From contig JBEKTZ010000010.1 in assembly GCA_049515535.1 (NCBI GenBank), positions 1-64,000 on the forward strand: a DNA stretch of 64,000 nucleotides, read 5' to 3'. The stretch is from Candidatus Aminicenantales bacterium. Its GTDB lineage: Bacteria; Acidobacteriota; Aminicenantia; Aminicenantales; UBA4085. Of this stretch, positions 27,001-36,000 are shown in pieces (the stretch's first letter is position 1; each line of letters opens with the position of its first letter). Made by a program: the position numbers.

Positions 27001-30000
27001 TTCACCCAGCGCGTGGACGAAAAAATGTCGTTTCGCTCGGGATTCACGGACATCGACGGCTCCCGGGCGATCATCGTCGAGGATATCCTGACGACCGGCG
27101 GTTCGCTCAACGAAGTCGTGGACTGCTTGAAACGGCACAACGTGGGGGTGGCCGGGATCGCTGTGCTCGTGGACCGGACCGCGGGCGAAGTTCTCATCGA
27201 AGGCCGGCCGGTGAGCAGTCTCCTGGCCTTGAAGGTCGAGGCGTTCGACGCCGAGGCCTGTCCCCTCTGCAAAAAAGGCATTCCCCTGACGAAGCCGGGC
27301 GCCTCGGATAAAAAAGTCTGATCCGGCGCGCCGAGAGCCACTCTTCAGAAAGATCGGAGGACGATATGATCAAGATCAAACGTCATCGGCCCGGTCGCAT
27401 AGCGATCGTCGCGGCCTCCTTATTCGTTTTTTGGGCCACGGTTCCCCTGCGCGGGCAATTGATCGAAGACGAGCGGAACACGATCGACATCGTCAAGCGG
27501 ACGAAGAACAGCGTCGTGTTCATCACGAACATCCAACTGGTCCGGGACTGGTACTTCAATGAAACGAAGGTCCCCAAGGGCAGCGGTTCGGGATTCATCT
27601 GGGACGATCAGGGCCGCATCGTGACGAATTTTCACGTCATCGCGGACGGCATCGAGTTCAGCGTCACGCTGCCCAACCATGAACAGCGCTCGGCCAAGGT
27701 GGTCGGCAAGGACGAAAAAAAGGACATCGCCGTTCTCCAGATCCAGGGGGACCTGAAGAGCCTTTCCCCGATCACAGTCGGCGTCTCCAAGGACCTCGAG
27801 GTCGGCCAGAAGGTCATCGCCATCGGCAATCCATTCGGTTTCGATCACACCGTCACTGTGGGCATCGTCAGCGCCCTGGGCCGGCAGATCGTCGGCGCGG
27901 GCGACGTCACCATCCGCGACATGATCCAGACCGATGCTTCGATCAACCCCGGCAATTCAGGCGGCCCGCTGCTGAATTCGAGCGGCGAGCTCATCGGCAT
28001 GAACACCATGCTCGTCTCTCCTTCGGGAGCCTCGAGCGGCGTCGGGTTCGCCGTTCCCGTGGACGCGATCAAGAAGATCGTGCCCGAAATCATCCGCTAC
28101 GGCAAGGTCATCCGGCCGGACCTGCCCATGACCTTGCTTTCGGATGCCTACGCCCGGCGATTCAATATCGAGGGCAACGGCGTGGTTATCGTCGAAGTTC
28201 AGACCGGAAGCGAGGCCGCCAGGGCGGGTTTGAACGGGCTCAGCCGGGACCGCCGCAACAATCTGTATCTCGTCGACGTCATCACCGCCGTCGACCTCAT
28301 CAAGGTCAAGTCTTACGACGATCTCTACAATACTCTGGAAAATTATAAGATCGGCGACGTCGTCACGCTGACCGTCAAGCGGGACGGCAATGAACGCAAG
28401 GTCCGCATCACGCTCATCAAGAGCGACTGAACACAGCGCCTATCAAAATCTCTCACGAAGGAGGAACGCTCATTTGAACGCAAATCCGAGTCCGGGGACG
28501 GCCCTGATCACCGGCGCGTCGAGCGGCCTGGGAGAGTCATTCGCGCGCCGGTTGGCGAAACAAGGGAACAATCTGATCCTCGTCGCCCGCCGGGAAGACC
28601 GATTGCGGGCCCTGGCGGACGCATTGCGGAAGGAGCACCACATTCAGGCGGAGGTCCTGTCCGCCGATCTTTCCGACGACGCCGGAATCAAGCGGGTCGA
28701 GGAATGGATCCGGTCCCGGACCGATCTGACGCTCCTCGTCAACAACGCCGGATTCGGGGCCTGCGGCAGGTTCGACCGCGTCGATATCGAAAAACAGACG
28801 GCCATGATCCACGTCCACATCATCGCCACGGCCCGGCTGATCCGGGTCGCCCTCCCCTCCATGGTCGAGAGGAAAAAGGGCGCGATCATCAACGTCGCCT
28901 CCGTCGCCGCTTTCGCCATAGCGCCGCGCAGCGCCATGTACGGATCGACGAAAGCCTGGGAGGTCGCCTTTTCAAGAGCCCTCGCCCAAGACCTGCGGGG
29001 GACGGGCATCCGCGTCCAGGTCCTTTGCCCCGGCTTCACGGTCACCGAATTTCACGACGCGCCCGATATGAAGGATTTCGAGCGCTCGTCGATTCCGAAG
29101 TTCATGTGGATGTCGGCGGACGACGTTGTCGCCGTCTCGTTGAACGCGTTGAAACGAAAGAAGGTCGTGATCATCCCGGGTTTCGGGAATAAAATTCTCG
29201 CGGCCGCGGCCCGATTGCCCTTTGCCGCGGCTTTTTCCGGCTTTTTCCTCCGAAAGCGCCGATAAACGGCAAATTAACCCAAGGGGAGACGCCCTCGCGG
29301 GTCTCTCTTCCATTGACGAATTTCTTGACTTCCCCCTGTGGAAATCTTATAGTCCGAATATGAAAAAATTCCTCACCCTGGCCTTCGTTCTTGCGCTCGC
29401 TTGCGCGGCTTCGGCCCAGACATGGTTCAAGGGAACCCTGGACCAAGCGGCGTCCAAAGCCAAAAGCGATCACAAGCTGGTCCTCGTCGATTTTTACTCC
29501 TACACCTGAGGGAGCTGCAAACTGCTGGGTCAGCAGTTTTACGAAAATCCCAAGTTCAGAGACTTCCTCGAAAAGAATTTCGTCCTCTTCCGGGCCATTG
29601 TCCAAGAGCCGGCCGGCGACGCCGTCTTCAAGAAATTCGGCATTCGCGCCACGCCGACGATCATGCTTCTCGACGGGGACGGCGCCGAAGTCGATTGGGT
29701 CGTCGGCTACGCTCCTCCCCCCGAGAAATTCGAGGACAAGCTCGGGCAGATGGTGGCCGGCAACGAGACGTTCAAGTCCCTGTCCGCCGCTTATGCCAAG
29801 AATCCCAAGGACGTCCCGACCGTCTTCAAGCTGGCGCGGAAATGGAGCGACCGTTACGACGAAGCCAAAGCCGCGGTGAAATATAAAGAGGTTCTCGCCC
29901 TCGATCCCCTGGGCCAAGCCGGCACCTACACCCAGGAATATTCGAAGATCACCGCGTCTTACACCGAGTTTGCCGAATTCTCGATCGCGACGGCCAATCT

Positions 30001-33000: not shown

Positions 33001-36000
33001 AAGAACCTGGAGAGCGCCCTGGAAGCGGCAAAGAAAGCCGTCGAGTTGACACCGGACGCCTTTGCCGTCTGGAACACGCTGAGCCAGGTCCATCTAAAAA
33101 TGAAAAACTACGACGAGGCGATCAAAGCGGCCCAGAAGGCCGTCGACGTCGCTCCCACGGAACAACTGAAGGAAAGGTTCAGAAAGCAGATCGAGCAGAT
33201 CAAGGCGGAGAAGGAAAAAAAGTAAGCGATTTTTGATGAAGGGGACAATCTGGGGTGTCCCCTTTTTTTTGCCTTTTTTCCCTTTTTAAAATGGGAAAGA
33301 GGGGGATTTCATTCAGCGCGAAAGCGTGATCGAGCCGTTGGTCGTTCTGAGATTGATCTCCGGCCCGCCGCTCCCGAGCGTGCCTTCCACCGTTTTACGC
33401 GATTGGATGAGGCCCTTGATCGTGATCGGGAAATCCGTCTGGATATGACCGTTGGTCGAATGCGCCTTCAAAACGGCATTCAGATCTCCCGAGATCTTCA
33501 ACGTGATCGAGCCGTTGGTCGTCCTGGCCATGATGCCGGCTTCGAACGCCCGGACATCGATATGAATGCTCCCGTTGGTCGTCCCCGCGTCGATGGGACC
33601 TTTGGCGTTCACGACATGGACATCGCCGTTGGTCGTATGAGCCGTGCATCGGCCGGATGTGGTTTCGAGCTTGATGTCGCCGTTCGTGGTCCCGGCGCTG
33701 GCCTCGCCGTAACGGCCCGTGATCTCGACGTCGCCGTTGGTCGAGCGGACATTCTCCAACCGGACGCCCTCTGGGACCTTGATCTCGTAGTTGACATCGA
33801 CTCGGATATCCCGGAAAAGGGACCAATCATAGATCGTATCCACCGCGACGGCGTCGCCGGAGGCCGTGACCTCGATCTTGACCCGGTCAAGATCCTCTTT
33901 GCGCCGTTTGGCGATTTTCACGGCTTTGATCTCGACCTCGCTCCGCGTCCATGTGGAGACGATGACGATGCCGTTCGTGTTCTTTAGGCTGAAACGCCCG
34001 GCGGCCGAAAGAGGAAGCGTTTTCTCGAATTTTTCCTGATCTTCGCCGGCGGCGAGACCGGCCGCGCCGACCGTCAAGACGGCCGCTCCGGCCATGAGGG
34101 CCAAGAATAAAAGCAACGCGGATAAGGATTTTTTCATTTTCATCTTCTCCTCCATCATTGGCATTCAATCCTAAAGACGATGAGGAGACGGAAAAGGTTG
34201 CCTGGTTCGGGCCGTTTAAAGCGTCCAGCTTATGCCCGCGCCAATGCTTCCGCCGAATGAGGCCCGTCCATATTCGATGGTGATCGTGATAAAACCGGCT
34301 TTTTCATCGCAAAAAAAGCCGACGGCCAACGGTCCTCCATAATTCCACAAAATCTCTTTGCTGAGAATGAGGCTCATCGCTTTCAACATGGGAGAATCCT
34401 GGGACGGTTGGTCCTTGAAGATCTCGAGCCTGAACTTGTAGGTCTTCTCCTTGTCGTTGATCTCGACCGGGGCCACAAAAATCGAGTATTCCTTCCCGTT
34501 CAGCTTTATCGTGCAAGAGGTCTTCGGCTGGCTTTGTTTCAGCTCATTCCAATTTTCAGCGGCCATCCTGACCTCACCGGCTTCCTTTTCGGCGGTGAGC
34601 GACGGGAGCCTGAAGAATTTTCTGAGGTTCTCGAGCTGCCGGGCGGCCGTTTTTCCCAGTCCGTCGTCTCCGTTTCGGGCGAACAGAACGATCTCCGGTT
34701 CGCCGCTCTTTCCCGGGACGCTTTCGCCCGCGGCCGGCGTCATGAAAAGACGGGTCTTGAATTGAAGCGAAATTTCGCTTTTCCCCTCGGACGGCGGATT
34801 TTGCCCGATCAATGAACCTGCCCCGAAGGCGAGGCCGGTTAGCCACGCTAAAACCAGGATTTTTTTGCTCGCTCTCATGTTTGTCCTCCCGCTTGATATA
34901 CAAATGAGAGCGAGAATTATTCCCGGGACCGGAATGAAAGCCTATAAATTCTCGAAGATTTCTTTACGCGTTCGCCTCCGCTAAGCCCCGACTTAAAAGG
35001 CAGGGACGAGAAGCGAGGCTCAGGGTTAACCCCGACAAGCCCCGGCATTCATGCCGGGGGCACTCACCCGCGGTGTAAATACGCGGCTGAGTGCGGCGGA
35101 AGCGGATCCCCAGACAAAGCCTGGGGCCCCTGCCGCCGTCAAGGGGTTTACTTCGATTCTTCCTTGATCACTTCGCCGTAGACCGCGACCTGGTCCTTGA
35201 TCTTCTCGTAGTCGCCGACGATAAAGATCGTCATGTCCCCGCCGCGCAGGCGATCGGCGACGATTTTCTGGATTTCGGCCGGCGTGACCTTGAAGACGTT
35301 CCGGATATAGGTGCTCAGATAGTCCTTGCCCAACTCGTTCAGTCTCAGGTAATTCAGGATGCCGATGATTCCGTTCGGCGTCGAGTTTTGCAGGATGAAC
35401 GTTCCTGAAAACAGGTTCTTGATGCCCTTGAGCTCGGCCTCGGCAGGGGCCTCGTTCTTCAGACGGTCGATCTCGAAAAAGATTTCCTTTAGCGCGGCGC
35501 CCGTGACGTTCGTCGCGACGTCGGCCTGTTCGTACCAGCAGGCGTCCTTGTAGCGCCGGATGATGGCGCTGGTGGGCGAATAGGTGTAGCCCTTGTTCTC
35601 ACGGATGTTGCTCGTGATGCGCGAGGCAAAAGCTCCGCCGAGAAGCGTATCCGCCACTTCGAGGGCGATGAAATCCTCGTGGGCCGGCGGGATGACCGGC
35701 AGGCCGAGGAGGATGGTCGACTGCACCGAGCCCGGCCTGTCGAGGACATGGACTTTTCGGGCCGACTTCGGCGCCGGGACATTCGTCACCATCTCATTTC
35801 CCGCTTTCCAGTCTTTCAATGCCTCCCGGATCGCCTGTTCCGCTTTCCGCTCGTCGAAGACGCCCGCGATATAGAGATGGGTCCGCCGGGCGCCGTAGTT
35901 TTCCGCGTAAAATTTCTTGATCGTCGCGATCGTATAGCTCTGGATCCGGCTTTCCGACGGAAACGTCCGGCCGTAGGGATGGTCGCCGTAAAGGACGTGG

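What a model noticed while it worked through the whole genome (the two positions that open the first line are those of the whole stretch)
29360..33225. Exported selenocysteine thioredoxin-fold/TPR proteins, a strictly Sec family miscalled as truncated TPR proteins
Two paralogous genes (C10:29360-30871 and C10:31777-33225) are each split by the gene caller at one in-frame TGA that sits at the first position of a thioredoxin-fold redox motif (FYSYT-U-GSCK), behind a signal peptide and in front of a ~350-aa TPR domain. I read them as secreted or periplasmic selenoproteins, U-x-x-C thiol-selenol oxidoreductases whose TPR domain holds the substrate, and as the main client of this genome's Sec machinery (selA, selB, selD, tRNA-Sec on C11). 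New would be a whole, so far unannotated, obligately Sec-containing envelope oxidoreductase family typical of Aminicenantales, often in tandem arrays.
Evidence so far: Read-through with TGA=U gives 503- and 482-aa proteins with Thioredoxin_2/Thioredoxin_7 at 24-128 spanning the TGA (E 9e-14, call 52) and TPRs behind. Call 54: of 121 Aminicenantia genomes 22 have the protein; all 35 matches that cover the N-terminus hold exactly one in-frame TGA, none a Cys codon; up to 5 tandem copies. Call 57: 16 of 16 copies in 12 loci have a hairpin ACUGCUG-GGU-CAGCAGU about 13 nt behind UGA (bacterial SECIS-like), with a G:C to C:G swap between copies. Call 49: all 120 best database homologues are 363-452 aa, i.e. 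begin behind the TGA, and are named 'tetratricopeptide repeat protein'. A hairpin scan of the whole genome found no other in-frame TGA with such a GGU-loop h [...]
(Added by a program. Inside this text positions count along the whole contig: contig position 1 is position 1 of the stretch shown here. "Call 12" and the like, gene names such as g00115 and contig names such as C1 are that model's own, and its searches are not shown. The text may have been shortened before it was handed on; [...] marks where a part breaks off. The agent that wrote the report below was given it as the finding of a first reader that could run no searches.)

Follow-up and report, generated by a model that had tools for sequence, protein, structure and literature searches.

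The report
Exported selenium thioredoxin-TPR protein pair
Two neighbouring genes that look broken by a stop codon almost certainly encode exported selenium-containing redox proteins, and in this bacterial group the selenium-insertion machinery seems to be kept mainly, perhaps only, to make them.

Summary
Observation confirmed. Both genes read through one TGA at the first position of a thioredoxin U-x-x-C motif, behind a signal-like N-terminus and before TPRs. Selenocysteine is near certain: 146 of 150 listed class matches hold exactly one TGA; a hairpin follows it in 73 of 73 close copies, with a synonymous base tied to its partner in 72; tRNA-Sec and selA are present. 'Strictly Sec' and 'typical of Aminicenantales' are overstated: a full-length Cys member nests inside the clade; Sec and Cys relatives occur in other classes and phyla. 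Added here: family and selA co-occur across 339 class genomes (101 both, 219 neither), the gene often sits inside the sel operon, a stand-alone DsbD-alpha gene flanks it or selA in 10 of 12 genomes outside the own family, and no other selenoprotein turned up. Best reading: DsbD-fed envelope disulfide reductase/isomerase. It resembles the catalogued 'thiol:disulfide interchange protein' UxxC kind; the TPR fusion was not found in print. This scan noted such proteins before on other DNA (8 notes).

The parts
29325..29353 (+). sigma-70-like promoter match before copy 1 (TTGACT-17-TATAGT)
   Evidence: consensus match only (2 found, 1.0 expected in shuffles)
29360..30871 (+). copy 1: 503-aa exported U-x-x-C thioredoxin-fold/TPR selenoprotein gene
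29360..29416 (+). signal-peptide-like N-terminus (basic start, hydrophobic core, A-x-A end)
   Evidence: sequence; crude charge/hydrophobicity rule met by 93 of 97 Sec copies; no dedicated predictor available
29417..29764 (+). thioredoxin-fold domain of the DsbH / DsbD-gamma type
   Evidence: Pfam PF13098, PF13899; model residues 1-116 match DsbH 2ju5 Z 15.8, rmsd 2.2, 114 aligned
29507..29509 (+). in-frame TGA = Sec50, first position of U-G-S-C (Cys53 at 29516-29518)
29519..29539 (+). bacterial SECIS-like hairpin, 9 bp stem, GGU loop 18 nt after UGA
29651..29656 (+). Thr98-Pro99, the cis-proline loop position of the thioredoxin fold
   Evidence: Pro in 62 of 62, Thr before it in 55 of 62 aligned rows
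29765..30868 (+). helical TPR-like solenoid
   Evidence: Pfam TPR models; model pLDDT 96; Foldseek hits are TPR superhelices
30894..31637 (+). class I SAM methyltransferase ORF between the copies; not part of the system as far as tested
   Evidence: one contig of a related organism skips 31048-31714
31731..31760 (+). sigma-70-like promoter match before copy 2 (TTGACA-18-TATATT)
   Evidence: consensus match only
31777..33225 (+). copy 2: 482-aa paralogue, 55% identical over the mature chain
31924..31926 (+). in-frame TGA = Sec50 of U-G-G-C
31937..31955 (+). SECIS-like hairpin of copy 2, 8 bp stem, loop-closing pair swapped to C:G
33238..33265 (+). terminator-like hairpin with T run after copy 2

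Best explanation
Both genes encode full-length selenoproteins. SelB, bound to the hairpin inside the coding sequence, inserts Sec at UGA50 (strongly supported by sequence evidence, not shown biochemically). The chain is exported by a cleavable signal peptide (inferred from the N-terminus). In the envelope the thioredoxin domain uses Sec50 as nucleophile and Cys53 as resolving residue to reduce or reshuffle disulfides, or oxidised cysteines, in client proteins (inferred from fold and motif). The Se-S bond is re-reduced by the DsbD alpha domain, which draws electrons from cytoplasmic thioredoxin (inferred from gene linkage and the known Dsb pathway). The TPR solenoid binds clients or a partner (inferred, weakest step). 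In this order the protein is the main and possibly only reason to keep selA/B/C/D.
For: Sec: 146 of 150 listed matches (of 235; four candidates scored per genome) carry exactly one TGA; the two without lack the N-terminus (N run, contig end). TGA aligns with the first Cys of CxxC relatives. Stem of 7 bp kept in 72-73 of 73 close copies; Leu codon CTG/TTG goes with CAG in 55 and CTC with GAG in 17, one mismatch, while Leu is CTC 1009 / CTG 920 elsewhere in the same genes; loop Gly is GGT in 54 of 56 against 138 of 1755 elsewhere; hairpin of -3 kcal/mol or better in 101 of 101 Sec sites and 4 of 25 Cys sites. The window hairpins meet the consensus in PMC13188914 section 5. tRNA-Sec, selA, selD, selB on C11. 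Co-occurrence with selA: 101 both, 11 family only, 8 selA only, 219 neither. Order selA-selD-gene-DsbD-alpha-MarR-selB in G033 and G029; variants in G006, G072, G131, G027. Stand-alone DsbD-alpha with an intact Cys pair next to selA or the gene in 10 of 12 Sec-positive genomes outside the own family; G000 has a full alpha-beta-gamma DsbD. Thr before the cis-Pro is typical of the DsbD-fed DsbC and DsbG (PMC2665069 passages). Best fold match is DsbH. Oxidation is covered separately by a VKOR-DsbA fusion. No TGA in 51 molybdopterin, 97 AhpC-TSA, 28 MvhD and 85 NiFe-hydrogenase matches in 20 Sec-positive genomes; SelD has Cys in 6 of 6 genomes read; the two genes rank first and second of 8,883 unshadowed TGA junctions in G000.
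Against: No protein, RNA or activity data. Related genomes are not independent, so counts overstate. The loci used were best hits, not a random sample. In the own family the gene is not beside selA (other contig in G000; 79-230 kb away in G222, G201, G212) and its neighbours vary. DsbD-alpha also occurs in 4 of 10 selA-negative genomes. Thr before the cis-Pro makes thioredoxin folds more oxidising (PMC2665069), which also suits an oxidase. The family searches can miss TGA-split genes: the PF00085 search did not list the two target genes; the GrdB search had no positive control. Eight selA genomes gave no full match; G035 carries a different sel operon. A Cys member exists, so Sec is not chemically indispensable.
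Confidence: 0.62

Rival explanations
1. Selenoprotein as above, but working as an exported chaperedoxin: the TPR part is a holdase for unfolded envelope proteins and the Sec site protects or repairs their cysteines, like cytoplasmic CnoX/YbbN.
For: Same domain order as CnoX (thioredoxin then TPR; PMC8129009 passages). PDB 3qdn (title 'putative thioredoxin protein', recalled as Salmonella YbbN) aligns over both domains at Z 12.6 but rmsd 19.8. Several paralogues per genome suit different clients.
Against: No NCBIfam CnoX-type hit listed; the thioredoxin domain is nearer to DsbH/DsbD-gamma than to classical thioredoxins; CnoX hands clients to cytoplasmic GroEL/DnaK, which an exported protein cannot. 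Not exclusive of the best explanation.
Confidence: 0.18
2. Selenoprotein acting as the envelope thiol oxidase (DsbA-like), re-oxidised by VKOR.
For: VKOR in 5 of 5 genomes tested, DsbB in 0 of 5; Thr at cisPro-1 raises redox potential.
Against: The VKOR of G000 carries its own DsbA-like C-P-D-C domain; linkage is with DsbD-alpha, not VKOR; fold lacks the DsbA helical insertion among top matches.
Confidence: 0.07
3. Selenoprotein dedicated to one pathway, for example keeping apocytochrome or metalloenzyme cysteines reduced (CcmG/CcmH-like) or handling selenium species in the envelope for the sel operon itself.
For: DsbD-alpha feeds CcmG-type proteins (established knowledge); weak TPR_CcmH_CycH hit below cut-off (E 2e-4); position inside the sel operon in one family.
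Against: No conserved cytochrome-maturation or transporter neighbour among 20 loci from eight families; sel linkage is the expected pattern for a sole client gene (PMC1794560 passages).
Confidence: 0.1
4. The TGA is a true stop: a short secreted peptide plus a separately started TPR protein, or read-through with another residue, or pseudogenes.
For: Databases hold the downstream part as a TPR protein; in-frame CTG/TTG codons follow the motif.
Against: The stop would cut a thioredoxin fold at its active site; always TGA, never TAA/TAG, at that column in 103 of 130 sites, the rest being Cys (25) or unrelated (2); tracks selA; hairpin constraint absent from Cys relatives.
Confidence: 0.03

Closest known systems
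'Thiol:disulfide interchange protein' selenoprotein family (PF13098, UxxC, representative WP_011366075.1; PMC13188914 Table 1, PMC9312934 table, PMC1794560)
   Same: Same Pfam domain (Thioredoxin_2), same U-x-x-C motif, predicted only.
   Different: Catalogue entries name no TPR domain; 3 members among Deltaproteobacteria in 2006. I could not fetch the representative sequence, so shared ancestry and architecture are untested. BSepDB's tblastn screen (E 0.01, Sec/TGA pairs) could have filed some members under this name.
Cys-type exported Thioredoxin_7/Thioredoxin_2 + TPR 'thioredoxin family proteins' (ESM Atlas clusters from Krumholzibacteriota, Acidobacteriota, Myxococcota, Planctomycetota; P0091, P0140, L088)
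   Same: Signal-like N-terminus, same thioredoxin subtype, TPR tail.
   Different: CxxC instead of UxxC, no hairpin, 25-40% identity; uncharacterised as far as found.
DsbH, DsbD gamma domain, Bacteroides 2kuc; DsbC/DsbG
   Same: Thioredoxin fold (Z 15.8, 13.8, 14.6); envelope location and DsbD link as inferred; Thr-cisPro as in DsbC/DsbG.
   Different: Sec; 350-residue TPR solenoid in place of a dimerisation domain or membrane part; below all NCBIfam cut-offs.
CnoX/YbbN chaperedoxins
   Same: Thioredoxin domain followed by TPR domain.
   Different: CnoX is cytoplasmic, about 285 aa, works with GroEL/DnaK, has SxxC or CxxC; here exported, about 500 aa, UxxC.
TsoB (NF045694) and Trx7/PDZ selenoprotein (NF041199)
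   Same: Selenoproteins with a related thioredoxin domain.
   Different: Scores 34 of 805 and 15 of 300 bits; other domains and other Sec motifs (UxxxxU, CxxU).

Membership tests
Bacterial selenoprotein (general) | In-frame UGA aligned with Cys of homologues at a redox motif | tested here: met
Bacterial selenoprotein (general) | SECIS after UGA: stem 4-16 bp, loop 3-9 nt with G in first two positions, 16-37 nt spacing, energy at most -7.5 (PMC13188914 section 5) | tested here: met
   stems 9 and 8 bp, loop GGU at 18 nt, -9.9 and -9.3 kcal/mol; conservation and covariation
Bacterial selenoprotein (general) | selA, selB, selC, selD in the genome | tested here: met
   (selB and selD named from sequence motifs and Pfam AIRS domains)
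Bacterial selenoprotein (general) | Selenium shown in the protein | not testable with these tools
   needs 75Se or mass spectrometry
'Thiol:disulfide interchange protein' selenoproteins (PF13098, UxxC) | Thioredoxin_2 domain over cut-off with UxxC | tested here: met
   52 and 50 bits against cut-off 27
'Thiol:disulfide interchange protein' selenoproteins (PF13098, UxxC) | Orthology and domain architecture shared with WP_011366075.1 | not testable with these tools
   sequence not retrievable here
NCBIfam selenoprotein models (TsoB, Trx7/PDZ, VPGUxxT and others) | Score over curated cut-off | tested here: not met
   no model over cut-off for the two window proteins or 11 relatives
CnoX/YbbN chaperedoxins | Thioredoxin domain followed by TPR domain | tested here: met
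CnoX/YbbN chaperedoxins | Cytoplasmic protein without signal peptide | tested here: not met
   signal-like N-terminus in 93 of 97 Sec copies by a crude rule
CnoX/YbbN chaperedoxins | Holdase activity and hand-over to GroEL/DnaK | not testable with these tools
   bench assay
DsbD-fed envelope reductases/isomerases (DsbC, DsbG, DsbH, CcmG) | Exported thioredoxin fold with dithiol-type motif and cis-Pro loop | tested here: met
DsbD-fed envelope reductases/isomerases (DsbC, DsbG, DsbH, CcmG) | Reduced by the DsbD alpha domain | tested here: inconclusive
   gene linkage only; no binding or redox data
   P0011 / L110, L111: TGC at the site, 509 aa, nested with G131's Sec copy

The most novel reading that the evidence does not exclude
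A whole bacterial order keeps, loses and clusters its selenocysteine machinery for one exported protein type: a Sec-thioredoxin-TPR folding catalyst that forms, with a stand-alone DsbD-alpha domain encoded in the sel operon, a selenium-based envelope redox relay. When selenium use is lost the gene is dropped rather than converted to Cys. This would be a Sec trait maintained without formate dehydrogenase or Sec-SelD.
Probability: 0.45. Interest if true: 0.72.

Novelty: new variant of a known kind. Interest (0 to 1): 0.55.

Why it matters
It repairs the annotation of at least a hundred genomes in which a redox enzyme is filed as a bare TPR protein. It gives the Sec machinery of a widespread anaerobic lineage a client: PMC1794560 (passages) ties sel clusters to fdhA or selD, whereas here neither carries Sec and the clustered client is an exported Dsb-type protein. 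A natural Sec/Cys pair inside one clade (G131 copy and P0011, 56% identical) and a co-encoded DsbD-alpha make the question 'what does selenium buy in an envelope thiol oxidoreductase' directly testable in vitro. The chemistry itself (UxxC thioredoxin fold) is a known kind.

Tried and rejected
Genome-wide TGA recoding: rejected. Other TGA junctions in G000: C7:41737 is a stop followed by a GTG start; the TGA in the HdrA match is its terminal stop; G033:C3 HdrA TGA lies before the start and the motif is Cys; two more HdrA matches with TGA (G033:C84, G101) gave no readable Sec site and one (G033:C5) was not inspected. Rhodanese: 0 of 14 matches with a stop in 5 genomes. GrdB not found in 20 genomes, no positive control. 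PF00085: 0 of 113 matches with a stop, but it missed the target genes, so weak. Search for a Cys member among 339 class genomes with P0011: none among 150 listed matches, 11 unlisted. A Fisher test is not used because kin are not independent. Sequencing runs: no RNA holder listed; DNA contigs of four runs from four studies cover both genes and show no change at the TGAs among 40 listed rows, 158 rows not shown. No complex model of the protein with DsbD-alpha was obtained, so binding is open., 67 folded a truncated distant relative by mistake and is not used. Foldseek on the whole model returned only generic TPR superhelices. Conserved neighbours other than sel genes, DsbD-alpha and MarR: none seen in 20 loci. 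Literature: searches found no description of a thioredoxin-TPR selenoprotein or of Sec use in Aminicenantes; Haft and Tolstoy 2025 (PMC12013261) and Deng et al. 2026 (groundwater MAG screen with deep-Sep) were not held and could list it; BSepDB's web content and its supplementary Table S2 could not be seen (file cut).

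
Full report
1. Observation. With TGA read as U, 29360-30871 gives 503 aa and 31777-33225 gives 482 aa, each with a single TGA at codon 50; the mature chains are 55% identical. Pfam Thioredoxin_2 and Thioredoxin_7 span the TGA and TPR models follow; no NCBIfam model reaches its cut-off. The plain ORF list starts both genes behind the TGA. There is no third copy in G000. TGA is the genome's commonest stop (673 of 1290), so the code is standard.

2. Is the TGA selenocysteine? (a) Conservation: 112 of 339 class genomes match at E 1e-15; of 150 listed matches (85 more unlisted; four candidates scored per genome) 146 hold exactly one TGA, one holds two, one three (a broken copy), and two hold none because their N-terminus is missing (N run in G027, contig end in G171). 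(b) Position: at 130 distinct sites read from my loci the codon is TGA in 103, Cys in 25, other in 2; among the 75 sites at 43% identity or more it is TGA in 74 and TGC in 1. These loci were best hits, not a random sample, and the Cys group includes DsbD-gamma domains and single-domain proteins. (c) Hairpin: in 73 close Sec copies seven pairs outward from the loop hold in 72-73; the synonymous third base of a Leu codon follows the first base of the Gln/Glu codon it pairs with (CTG or TTG with CAG 55, CTC with GAG 17, one mismatch) though Leu is CTC 1009 / CTG 920 elsewhere; the loop Gly is GGT in 54 of 56 against 138 of 1755. A simple hairpin of -3 kcal/mol or better follows 101 of 101 Sec sites and 4 of 25 Cys sites; 65 of 73 close copies are matched by at most 10 of 100 synonymous recodings. 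Distant Sec subfamilies use other hairpins at the same distance. Kin share these changes, so the number of independent events is smaller. The window hairpins meet the consensus printed in PMC13188914 (section 5 read), although alone their folding energy is unremarkable. (d) Machinery: tRNA-Sec, selA, selD and selB lie on C11. I put Sec read-through at about 0.96.

3. Link to the Sec machinery. selA is found in 109 of the same 339 genomes. Overlap: 101 both, 11 family only, 8 selA only, 219 neither. Of the 11, G247 is a distant CxxC protein, G027 has selB beside the gene, and the other nine are 62-93% complete. Of the 8, G048 has a cut TGA copy, G035 has a different sel operon, six gave no match with the domain query. 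In 12 of 18 genomes picked by eye from the tables the gene lies 1.4-11 kb from selA; G033 and G029 read selA-selD-gene-DsbD-alpha-MarR-selB, and G006, G072, G131 and G027 show variants. In the own family it is unlinked.

4. Other clients? In G000 the two genes rank first and second among 8,883 TGA junctions not buried in another gene, and none of the other 100 that pass loose filters shows coding signal on both sides with a redox motif (a first scan agrees). In 20 Sec-positive genomes no TGA lies in 51 molybdopterin-enzyme, 97 AhpC-TSA, 28 MvhD or 85 NiFe-hydrogenase matches; SelD has Cys in 6 of 6 genomes read; in 5 genomes all 9 TGA-bearing Thioredoxin_7 matches of 15 are family copies. Limits: only some of the 100-odd known families were tested, small genes can escape my scan, and the PF00085 search missed the target genes. 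'Main client' is well supported, 'only client' likely but unproven.

5. Limits of the family. It is not strictly Sec: P0011 (509 aa, three cluster members) has a signal-like start, C-Q-G-C and the same TPR part; two metagenome loci confirm TGC. In a quick tree of 67 of 103 rows (36 close copies left out; careful search unfinished; midpoint root) it pairs with the Sec copy of G131 (SH-aLRT 95) inside Sec clades supported at 98 and 100, which suggests a Sec-to-Cys change (no clade test run). No Cys member showed among 150 listed class matches to P0011, so it is rare. Nor is the kind confined to one order: Sec forms occur in a lipoprotein-like subfamily, in other Acidobacteriota families, Thermoanaerobaculia, Zixibacteria and unnamed bacteria; Cys forms in Ignavibacteria, Eisenbacteria, Verrucomicrobiota, Planctomycetota and beside Sec forms in family f74. 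The Sec label needs 9 changes on the tree, at least 4 forced by strong branches. Database entries of Sec members start just behind the motif and, where named, read 'tetratricopeptide repeat protein'; for P0121 the upstream TGA was confirmed. Up to four copies lie in tandem in G220 and G223.

6. Mechanism. The model (62-row alignment, Cys in place of Sec) has mean pLDDT 96: a thioredoxin fold in residues 1-116 and a helical solenoid behind. Best matches are DsbH (Z 15.8, rmsd 2.2, 114 aligned), Bacteroides 2kuc (14.6) and DsbD-gamma (13.8) (sequence search agrees). Cys53 and Pro99 are invariant; Thr precedes the Pro in 55 of 62 rows, as in DsbC and DsbG, whose upstream partner is DsbD (PMC2665069, passages). 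All 20 Sec-positive genomes tested have a DsbD-alpha domain, against 4 of 10 selA-negative ones; in 10 of the 12 outside the own family a stand-alone, signal-bearing DsbD-alpha gene with its Cys pair lies next to selA (8) or right behind the gene (2). G000 has a full DsbD and a VKOR fused to its own DsbA-like domain. The simplest reading is an envelope reductase/isomerase fed by DsbD, with the TPR part as client-binding arm. Shown: sequence, fold, linkage. Inferred: export, partner, direction of electron flow, role of the TPR. Rivals are a CnoX-like exported chaperedoxin (PMC8129009, passages), an oxidase, or a pathway-specific reductase.

7. What is known. [quoted passage not shown] The same terms are absent from PMC9312934 (passages), deep-Sep PMC12013277 (term search) and BSepDB PMC13326102 (term search, sections 4 and 11; the held part of its supplement has no 'Aminicenan' row but is cut). 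PMC9012183 (passages) notes selABD in KSB1 without naming clients. Six library searches (listings only) found no description. Two relevant papers were not held. The scan's own notes hold eight similar findings on other genomes, one with a stand-alone DsbD-alpha; they are unchecked leads and reached me after my own tests.

8. Verdict. A real, mis-annotated selenoprotein pair; a new architectural variant of a known kind (UxxC thioredoxin-fold selenoproteins), not categorically new and not strictly Sec. The more surprising part is the near one-to-one tie between this protein, a DsbD-alpha gene and the Sec trait across an order. Interest 0.55.

Noticed in passing
G000:C11 (L076:251-1444, - strand); also L056, L057, L073, L074: SelD has Cys at the usual Sec position and carries an N-terminal Cys-rich extension of about 45 residues (C-x-C ... 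C-P-C ... C-x-C) in all copies read.
   Followed up: partly
L056:4064-4633, L073:1865-2434, L059:2325-2885, L150-L154: Stand-alone secreted DsbD-alpha genes inside or next to sel operons in five families of the order.
   Followed up: yes
L056:4931-5359, L057:1427-1837, L073:1130-1558: A MarR-family regulator gene sits between the selenoprotein gene and selB.
   Followed up: no
L087 (downstream of the main gene): A tandem paralogue has I-Q-S-C in place of U-x-x-C, that is, no nucleophile at the first position.
   Followed up: no
P0005: A 153-aa fragment has Ser at the Sec position (S-G-G-C); single record, could be a sequence error.
   Followed up: no
L174 (G035:C11): A different selA-selB-selD operon, SelD fused to a C-terminal CxxC (AhpD-like by eye) domain, in a genome without the family match.
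   Followed up: partly
window 30894-31637: Methyltransferase ORF between the two copies; a contig of a related organism skips most of it.
   Followed up: partly
window 21146-21676 and 25594-26640: Both ORFs contain a near-identical stretch of about 45 codons (A-F-A-A-E-x-D-P-R-A-K-P-G-A-L-T-R-x-V-N-T-R-L-S-A-A-E-A-D-P-Q-T-K-P-G-A-P) that looks like a repeated element inserted in frame.
   Followed up: no
window 21673-25590: DMSO-reductase-like operon (molybdopterin subunit with Tat-like start, ferredoxin, membrane anchor); Cys type, no TGA.
   Followed up: partly
G000:C5:55231-55614 (L176): VKOR fused to a DsbA-like C-P-D-C domain; VKOR in 5 of 5 and DsbB in 0 of 5 genomes tested.
   Followed up: partly
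L067:3-2401: In G117 the selenoprotein gene directly follows cytochrome bd oxidase genes.
   Followed up: no
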